Positions 1,361 through 1,552 of a stretch of DNA of 64,000 nucleotides are shown here, piece after piece (position 1 is the stretch's first letter; every line of letters starts with the position of its first letter). The stretch is from Saccostrea cucullata. Taxonomy: Eukaryota. The notes beneath the pieces are model-generated. The model was not told where the DNA came from, did not search any database, and saw only the letters and a program-made list of their open reading frames with translations. Location: positions 124,001-188,000 of the forward strand of contig NW_026928959.1 in the NCBI RefSeq assembly GCF_032062105.1, read 5' to 3'. The position numbers and the translations under genes were made by a program.

Positions 1361-1552
1361 ATGCTAAAACTCTTGTGGATTTTAAGCTTGGTCGCAATGT
1401 ACACAGTGGTTGGTACGGAGCCTTATTGCATCTGTGACAAGGCATACTTTAACTGTAGAGTGAGGTGTTTTTCTGTGAACCAAATGTTCCTCGCCAAGTG
1501 TTCCAGAAGGTGTAGTCATTACTATTTGTCCTGTTTCAAAGACTGTATTTGA
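1361..1552 (+). CDS. Small secreted cysteine-rich peptide (63 aa, 8 Cys), toxin/antimicrobial-peptide-like
   Basis: Hydrophobic signal peptide MLKLLWILSLVAMYTVVGT; mature region C-x-C-x6-C-x3-C-x10-C-x3-C-x6-C-x3-C, cationic; preceded by a canonical acceptor and TATA promoter. Confidence 0.75.
   Translation: MLKLLWILSLVAMYTVVGTEPYCICDKAYFNCRVRCFSVNQMFLAKCSRRCSHYYLSCFKDCI

What the first reader, a model, noticed from the sequence alone, without database searches (positions are those of the whole stretch)
1361..1552. Secreted 8-Cys peptide with a nemertean neurotoxin B-IV-like helical-hairpin cysteine framework
Seen: signal peptide plus a ~44-aa cationic mature peptide (7 K/R vs 3 D/E), spacing C-x1-C-x6-C-x3-C-x10-C-x3-C-x6-C-x3-C, with its own TATA box and 5'UTR intron. 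Knowledge (from memory): Cerebratulus neurotoxin B-IV has C-x3-C-x6-C-x2-C-x10-C-x3-C-x6-C-x3-C and folds as a disulfide-laddered helical hairpin. Inference: this does not look like a CS-alpha-beta defensin or big defensin and may be an uncharacterised bivalve defence, toxin or pheromone peptide that gene predictors easily miss.
Basis: partly seen in the sequence, partly recalled or inferred. Interest (0 to 1): 0.72.

Follow-up and report, generated by a model that had tools for sequence, protein, structure and literature searches.

The report
Unnamed oyster disulfide-ladder hairpin peptide family
This oyster gene encodes a small cysteine-rich peptide of an unnamed family, predicted to be secreted and to fold as two helices stapled by disulfides; its unchanged hairpin tip suggests it is likely a signal for a fixed partner rather than a relative of ribbon-worm toxin.

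Summary
The gene is real; the B-IV link is most likely convergent. ORF 1361-1552 encodes 63 aa: a hydrophobic leader and 8 Cys spaced x1-x6-x3-x10-x3-x6-x3, as described. An orthologue from unnamed public contigs (70% identical) keeps all 8 Cys and the stop position. Two paralogues in this genome and a Crassostrea virginica 'uncharacterized' protein have 6 Cys (x10-x3-x10-x3-x10). All five share C-x-S-x-N-Q-x5-C. AlphaFold2 predicts a helical hairpin (pLDDT 80.5; 2 of 5 models confident). Cys25 and Cys58 are present or absent together, which supports a ladder of disulfides. The B-IV profile (PF07822) does not hit, and the slots of B-IV's key Arg17 and Trp30 hold Asp and Asn. The nearest disulfide-bonded fold matches are plant vicilin-buried hairpins, all weak. 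The 21 residues around the tip are identical in the orthologue while the flanks drift (7 of 20 non-Cys). With low copy number and variable charge, this points to a ligand for a conserved partner: signal about 0.4, defence or protease inhibitor about 0.3, toxin about 0.05. The splice was not seen in RNA. Verdict: an undescribed family within a known structural class.

The parts
1188..1193 (+). TATA box candidate (TATAAA), 30 nt before an initiator-like TCATT at 1216-1220
   Evidence: Sequence; start site not tested
1218..1252 (+). Predicted non-coding first exon, no ATG; 5' end inferred
   Evidence: bases 1244-1252 fit the orthologue's N-W-R under table 4 with 0 mismatches
1253..1342 (+). Predicted 90-nt 5'UTR intron (GT...pyrimidine tract...AG)
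   Evidence: both paralogues also have an AG 1 nt before the ATG; splice not seen in RNA
1361..1414 (+). Predicted signal peptide, residues 1-18
   Evidence: Hydrophobic core; 12 of 18 identical in the orthologue; cleavage site inferred
1415..1549 (+). Predicted mature peptide, 45 aa, 8 Cys, two antiparallel helices; inferred pairs C36-C47, C32-C51, C25-C58, C23-C62
   Evidence: AlphaFold2; Cys pattern across five sequences; helical-face analysis
1454..1516 (+). Hairpin tip C32-S52 with the family motif C-x-S-x-N-Q-x5-C; 21 of 21 identical in the orthologue
1550..1552 (+). TGA stop, at the same position in the orthologue

Best explanation
The gene encodes a 63-residue, 8-cysteine member of an unnamed oyster peptide family that is predicted to be secreted, to fold as a disulfide-laddered helical hairpin, and likely to act as a signalling ligand whose conserved tip binds a fixed oyster receptor. 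Shown: intact frame, conserved Cys, family membership, invariant tip, low copy number. Predicted: leader cleavage near G18, two helices with a turn at residues 37-40. Inferred: the inner pairs C36-C47 and C32-C51 fix the tip; a 6-Cys form closes the far end with one pair (slot 21 to C62); this gene and its orthologue instead carry C25-C58 plus a C23-C62 pair, which needs the N-terminus to leave the helix. Inferred and untested: release from a narrow tissue or life stage, and binding of the S-x-N-Q loop with the flanking Arg/Lys/Phe residues to a host receptor as a hormone-, cytokine- or pheromone-like cue. Odds: real gene about 0.95, ladder hairpin about 0.85, signalling role about 0.4.
For: Orthologue P0004: non-Cys identity 17 of 17 in C32-S52 against 7 of 20 in the mature flanks (Fisher p=2e-5, borders chosen after looking; border-free run test p=3e-4). 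The invariant stretch includes outward- and side-facing R33, V34, R35, M42, K46, R49, R50, which the fold alone need not fix. S38, N40, Q41 and five Cys are invariant in 5 of 5 sequences at 29-71% identity. Three distinct genes on separate contigs; no tandem copy in the window or in 8 fetched 10-kb stretches. Net charge 0 to +4, so general membrane attack is not a shared trait. Fold: AlphaFold2 helices 20-36 and 41-62, pLDDT 80.5. C25 and C58 are both present in 2 and both absent in 3 of 5 sequences. The 6-Cys pattern is mirror-symmetric (chance 0.004). Hydrophobic residues sit at -3 and +4 of the inner Cys block in 4 of 5 sequences, as described for vicilin-buried hairpins. Precedent: an acrorhagin orthologue in Nematostella sensory neurons (passage in PMC11896702).
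Against: No function was tested and no receptor was found. The tip contrast rests on one orthologue pair without codon data. N40 sits at the helix N-cap, so the S-x-N-Q motif may be structural. Oyster defensins have the same size, pI (8.5-8.7) and precursor layout, and are made at low levels (PMC3390580 passages and listing). Most studied members of the fold class are defence peptides or toxins. The family motif was not found in the supplement text of the C. gigas visceral-ganglion peptide survey (0 hits for 3 motifs; sequences there are printed in blocks of 10 and some pages are pictures). Only 2 of 5 AlphaFold2 models were confident, the tool reports no disulfide pairs, and the model keeps C23 in a helix, 160 degrees off the ladder face. 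Mirror symmetry of the window peptide alone is not significant (0.11). Expression is not shown.
Confidence: 0.4

Rival explanations
1. A host-defence peptide or protease inhibitor, analogous to plant alpha-hairpinins, whose conserved tip binds a fixed microbial molecule or a protease.
For: Net +4, pI 8.7, rich in aromatic residues; same size and layout as oyster defensins; core C-x3-C-x10-C-x3-C and the weak best fold matches are vicilin-buried hairpins (9q1l Z 5.8, rmsd 1.0, 36 aligned); hairpinins include antifungal peptides and trypsin inhibitors (reference titles). A fixed target would also explain the invariant tip.
Against: Three dispersed genes, not an expanded cluster; one paralogue has net charge 0; oyster defensins show diversifying selection on exposed charges, the opposite of the tip here.
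Confidence: 0.3
2. A B-IV-like neurotoxin or deterrent acting on ion channels of crustacean predators.
For: 5 of 7 Cys intervals match B-IV; R35 sits just before the fourth Cys as B-IV Arg25 does; same predicted fold class.
Against: PF07822 does not hit the peptide, its relatives or their loci; no PDB sequence hit to B-IV at E up to 10; the Arg17 slot holds Asp (Lys in the orthologue, and R17K is inactive in B-IV) and the Trp30 slot holds Asn, with no Trp in any of 5 mature peptides; B-IV is an abundant mucus product, while this gene drew at most a few molecules in the two raw-read runs laid (tissues unknown).
Confidence: 0.07
3. A secreted structural or matrix peptide (shell, larval attachment, egg coat, mucus) in which the disulfide ladder only gives stability.
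For: Small, stage-restricted secreted Cys-rich peptides occur in mollusc shell and gamete coats (recalled); low signal in the runs laid fits a narrow window of expression.
Against: No repeats, acidic tracts or compositional bias typical of matrix proteins; an invariant exposed basic tip is better explained by a specific partner.
Confidence: 0.15
4. A chance ORF or a silent pseudogene.
For: No spliced read; the intron-spanning reads are unspliced and start upstream of the TATA box; no Pfam or PDB hit.
Against: An orthologue at 70% keeps frame, Cys and stop; the insertions and deletions listed in related reads fall outside the coding part, and the change listed at Cys58 is synonymous; a relative is an annotated C. 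virginica gene.
Confidence: 0.04

Closest known systems
Crassostrea virginica LOC111123328 (XP_022321295.1, 'uncharacterized protein')
   Same: True sequence relative (E 2.5e-8): hydrophobic leader, C-x3-C-x10-C-x3-C core, C-x-S-x-N-Q loop, C-terminal Cys.
   Different: 6 Cys (x10-x3-x10-x3-x10) instead of 8; the record carries a 105-aa N-terminal extension, probably a wrong start (inference); no function known.
Neurotoxin B-IV / nemertide beta (Pfam Toxin_13, PF07822; PDB 1VIB)
   Same: 8 Cys, helical hairpin with ladder disulfides (predicted here), x10 central interval, 5 of 7 intervals equal, Arg before the fourth Cys.
   Different: No profile or sequence hit; first interval x1 versus x3, third x3 versus x2; Arg17 and Trp30 slots not matched; most family genes found here have 6 Cys.
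Plant alpha-hairpinins / vicilin-buried peptides (VBP-8 6o3q, C2 6wql, Jug r 2 leader peptide 9q1l, nigellin-1.1 2nb2)
   Same: C-x3-C-xn-C-x3-C core; hydrophobic pair at -3/+4 in 4 of 5 sequences; best disulfide-bonded fold matches (Z 4.3-6.1, not above background).
   Different: Cut from vicilin precursors in seeds and typically two disulfides; here a stand-alone gene with its own leader and 3-4 inferred disulfides; no sequence homology.
Acrorhagin I (PDB 6UX5) and octocoral U-GRTX-Esi20/21
   Same: Secreted helical hairpins with three or four disulfides in one superfamily, intronless coding genes (PMC11896702 passages).
   Different: Cnidarian venom components in a large superfamily; not listed in PDB sequence or fold searches here; spacing not compared.
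Oyster CS-alpha-beta defensins (Cg-Defm, Cg-Defh)
   Same: Leader directly followed by a ~43-residue, 8-Cys cationic peptide, pI 8.5-8.7.
   Different: No beta sheet predicted, C-x-C at the N- rather than the C-terminus, no Pfam hit.

Membership tests
Neurotoxin B-IV / nemertide beta (PF07822) | Match to the family profile or sequence | tested here: not met
   0 Pfam families at E up to 10; relatives do not hit it; the genome search gave 2 sub-threshold places, neither a family locus
Neurotoxin B-IV / nemertide beta (PF07822) | Cys spacing x3-x6-x2-x10-x3-x6-x3 | tested here: not met
   x1-x6-x3-x10-x3-x6-x3; 5 of 7 intervals equal; 3 of 5 sequences have 6 Cys
Neurotoxin B-IV / nemertide beta (PF07822) | Helical hairpin with four ladder disulfides | tested here: inconclusive
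   Hairpin predicted; pairs inferred, not measured; 1VIB not listed in fold searches
Neurotoxin B-IV / nemertide beta (PF07822) | Arg after the second Cys (Arg17) and an aromatic residue four after the fourth Cys (Trp30) | tested here: not met
   D26 and N40 in these slots by Cys register
Neurotoxin B-IV / nemertide beta (PF07822) | Basic residue before the fourth Cys (Arg25) | tested here: met
   R35 in the window peptide, the orthologue and P0002; not in P0003 or P0005
Neurotoxin B-IV / nemertide beta (PF07822) | Paralytic activity on crustaceans | not testable with these tools
   Needs a bioassay
CS-alpha-beta defensin | Helix tied to a two-stranded beta sheet, C-terminal C-x-C | tested here: not met
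   All-helical models; C-x-C is N-terminal; no Pfam hit
Plant alpha-hairpinin / vicilin-buried peptide | C-x3-C-xn-C-x3-C core with hydrophobic pair at -3/+4 | tested here: met
   C32-x3-C36-x10-C47-x3-C51 with Y29/Y55; pair present in 4 of 5 sequences
Plant alpha-hairpinin / vicilin-buried peptide | Released from a vicilin or other multi-peptide plant precursor; sequence homology | tested here: not met
   Single-peptide precursor of 63 aa; no Pfam or PDB sequence hit
Acrorhagin-like cnidarian hairpins | Sequence or fold match to acrorhagin I | tested here: inconclusive
   6UX5 not listed; spacing not compared directly
Cragi-CCCGS (8-Cys C. gigas peptide, PMC8398477) | CCCGS motif | tested here: not met
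   Published sequences in the supplement differ entirely
Unnamed oyster family of LOC111123328 | Leader + C-x3-C-x-S-x-N-Q-x5-C-x3-C-x10-C | tested here: met
   5 of 5 sequences; a profile from three genome copies finds both outside members

The most novel reading that the evidence does not exclude
An oyster-specific hormone or pheromone family, missed by annotation, with its own receptor: three conserved genes released at a narrow stage such as spawning or settlement. It would be an independently evolved disulfide-ladder hairpin, and the 8-Cys branch would have swapped a helix-to-helix staple for a C-x-C to C-x3-C cap of the endothelin type (motif recalled).
Probability: 0.2. Interest if true: 0.7.

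Novelty: new variant of a known kind. Interest (0 to 1): 0.4.

Why it matters
It adds a bivalve family to the short list of disulfide-laddered helical hairpins, with natural 3- and 4-disulfide versions that show how the ladder is rewired. At 45 residues it can be synthesised and tested directly. If it is a reproductive or settlement cue it would matter for oyster aquaculture; if it is a defence peptide it is a new oyster antimicrobial scaffold. It also shows how such genes are lost in databases: one relative is mis-called under the wrong genetic code, another carries a doubtful extension. As it stands, without a function, specialist surprise is moderate.

Tried and rejected
Pfam: 0 families for the peptide at E up to 10; a sub-threshold AFF4_CHD hit on paralogue P0002 was rejected as helical noise. 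PDB sequences: 3 and 2 unrelated weak hits. Word-index homologue searches with P0001 and A1 found nothing; with A4 only P0004 and P0005 among 226 candidates. Fold searches: no match at E up to 0.001; the wide structural search gave generic helical pairs, best Z 7.2, none at Z 8 or more; B-IV and acrorhagin were not listed, which does not exclude them. ESM Atlas: did not take the window peptide, P0003 or P0004; for P0005 no feature hit and seven weak structural rows, one a vicilin cluster. RNA: no RNA holder listed by the index; no joint over the intron in 4 of 4 runs; zero depth over the L002 paralogue's coding part in 4 of 4 runs; tissues unknown, so no evidence on expression. Weak genome hits L009, L014, L015, L057, L058 are not members. 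Loop pattern search: 44 matches against 5 for the control, 4 of them the known loci; of the 25 fetched, only the 2 known genes have the Cys ladder; 17 other matches were not fetched. No DNA similarity or shared neighbours between the three genes beyond repeats. Literature: none of 9 searches listed a paper on this family; one search used the accession and two motifs; subscription journals are mostly not covered. Earlier findings by sequence and words: nothing. No complex prediction was run, as there is no candidate partner.

Full report
Observation. Window 1361-1552 (+) is a 63-codon frame with Cys at 23, 25, 32, 36, 47, 51, 58 and 62, and 7 K/R against 3 D/E in residues 20-63. A hydrophobic leader precedes it; cleavage after G18 is my inference from the recalled -3/-1 rule and from G18 being kept in the orthologue. 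TATAAA at 1188, an initiator-like TCATT at 1216, a GT at 1253 and a pyrimidine tract with AG at 1342 are all there.

Is it a gene? A search of the own genome gave 4 matches: the window gene and three more loci. Two of these lie on contigs that are 94-99% identical over about 18 kb and encode the same protein, so they are probably one gene assembled twice. That leaves three distinct genes. Reciprocal searches link them (P0002 to P0003 E 1.8e-7, to the window gene E 0.002). Each paralogue has a leader and an AG one base before its ATG. A profile of the three found 2 proteins among 1.84 billion representatives. P0004, from unnamed Logan contigs (a cluster of 5 members), is 70% identical with all 8 Cys. 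P0005 is Crassostrea virginica LOC111123328, uncharacterised. P0004's 147-aa length is a mis-call: its Trp after the last Cys-Met stands where the window has TGA, and its N-terminal extension reads through the first exon and intron. The N-W-R in that extension fits window 1244-1252, the end of the predicted first exon, with 0 mismatches. So the frame, the stop and the donor context are conserved. That the genome is an oyster's follows from the C. virginica relative and agrees with earlier unchecked notes.

RNA. The index listed no RNA holder. Of 4 runs laid on 900-2100, X4 had no depth over the gene. X5 had depth 2 over about 1146-1309, unspliced and starting upstream of the TATA box, and depth 2-4 over about 1392-1678; this is a handful of molecules and may be DNA. 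X1 had one 250-nt contig at 1420-1662, and X2 one contig 3' of the stop; both runs are only guessed to be RNA. No joint over the intron was seen. The differences listed in X5 include a synonymous change at Cys58 and two replacements that P0004 also has (Ala54, Met63); the listed insertions and deletions fall outside the coding part (the tables are truncated). The L002 paralogue had zero depth over its coding part in 4 of 4 runs. Tissues are unknown, so expression is open.

Fold. AlphaFold2 on the three mature peptides gave two helices (20-36, 41-62), mean pLDDT 80.5, with 2 of 5 models confident; the full precursor gave the same turn. The tool prints no disulfides, so pairing is inferred. The three 6-Cys sequences have x10-x3-x10-x3-x10, which is mirror-symmetric (chance 0.004); the window peptide alone has three mirror pairs, which is not significant (0.11). 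In ungapped register the 6-Cys forms have a Cys at slot 21 and lack both C25 and C58; the 8-Cys forms have both, and have C23 instead of slot 21. This is one evolutionary event, not many, but it is what a C25-C58 bond predicts. MAFFT gave a 4-residue-gap alternative in A2 and A4; the shared T-E in A1 and A3 favours no gap. Slot 21, C25, C32 and C36 share one helical face and C47, C51, C58, C62 another, while C23 is 160 degrees off. The fourth bond therefore needs an extended N-terminus, with C-x-C paired to the helix's C-x3-C as in the endothelin-type motif (recalled, from no call), or C23 pairs elsewhere. Hydrophobic residues stand three before C32 and four after C51 in 4 of 5 sequences, a packing feature reported for vicilin-buried hairpins (bioRxiv 2020.05.26.118075, passages).

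Comparison with B-IV. A review table gives B-IV's Cys as 12, 16, 23, 26, 37, 41, 48, 52, with Tyr9, Arg17, Arg25 and Trp30 as key residues (PMC6410017, section 12 and table passages). Five of seven intervals match, and R35 lies in the Arg25 slot. The Arg17 slot holds Asp, the Trp30 slot holds Asn, and none of 5 mature peptides has a Trp. PF07822 hits neither the peptides nor their loci. PDB sequence searches list no B-IV. Fold searches found nothing at E up to 0.001; the disulfide-bonded peptides among the weak rows were plant vicilin-buried hairpins and nigellin, within the background of generic helical pairs. The same ladder hairpin occurs in plants, scorpions, cone snails, ribbon worms, sea anemones and octocorals (PMC11896702 and PMC13608440, passages). 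Helix periodicity forces x3, x6 and x10 spacings, so the likeness is best read as convergence.

Mechanism. Between the window peptide and P0004, C32-S52 is identical at 21 of 21 positions, while the mature flanks keep 7 of 20 non-Cys residues (run test p=3e-4). The fixed stretch includes exposed basic and hydrophobic residues. S38, N40 and Q41 are invariant in all five sequences. The family is small and dispersed (counts are lower bounds), and net charge runs from 0 to +4. Oyster defensins instead show diversifying selection on exposed charges (PMC3390580, passages). I read this as a stable scaffold presenting a fixed surface to a conserved partner. An oyster receptor is the most likely partner (0.4); a microbial target or protease follows (0.3), then a matrix role (0.15), a B-IV-like toxin (0.07) and a non-gene (0.04). 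The caveats are real: one orthologue pair, no codon data, a loop motif that may be a helix cap, and no expression data.

Novelty. No Pfam family, no PDB relative, and no paper on the family in 9 searches. For PMC8398477 I saw the abstract, passages and a supplement search; its 8-Cys peptide CCCGS is different, and three family motifs gave 0 hits, though picture pages and 10-letter blocks limit that search. Other papers were seen as search listings only; bioRxiv supplements were closed. This is an undescribed oyster family within a known structural class: a new variant of a known kind, interest 0.4.

Noticed in passing
G000 C17295 and C17765 (L024-L027): The two contigs are 94-99% identical over about 18 kb around the paralogue; likely uncollapsed haplotypes.
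   Followed up: partly
window 1843-2047: A dispersed repeat just 3' of the gene draws hundreds of partly fitting reads in all four runs and dominates any read count here.
   Followed up: no
window 7966-13110 (+): Exons of a gene with weak Armadillo matches and a later exon that looks TIR-like (recalled motif, no Pfam hit).
   Followed up: partly
window 13816-15276 (-): DIOX_N plus 2OG-Fe(II) oxygenase gene.
   Followed up: partly
window 37246-49570 (+): SKICH exon, coiled-coil-like exons and autophagy-receptor zinc fingers: a TAX1BP1/CALCOCO-like gene (label recalled).
   Followed up: partly
window about 58300-61800: Long G-rich tandem repeat with open frames in several phases, rich in Trp and Cys codons; probably a minisatellite.
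   Followed up: no
P0004-P0009; P0005: Database entries of this family are mis-called: TGA read as Trp on unspliced DNA, and a 105-aa N-terminal extension in the C. virginica record.
   Followed up: yes
L030-L049: Many loop-pattern matches share one 23-nt sequence in non-coding context, the end of an apparent repeat family.
   Followed up: partly
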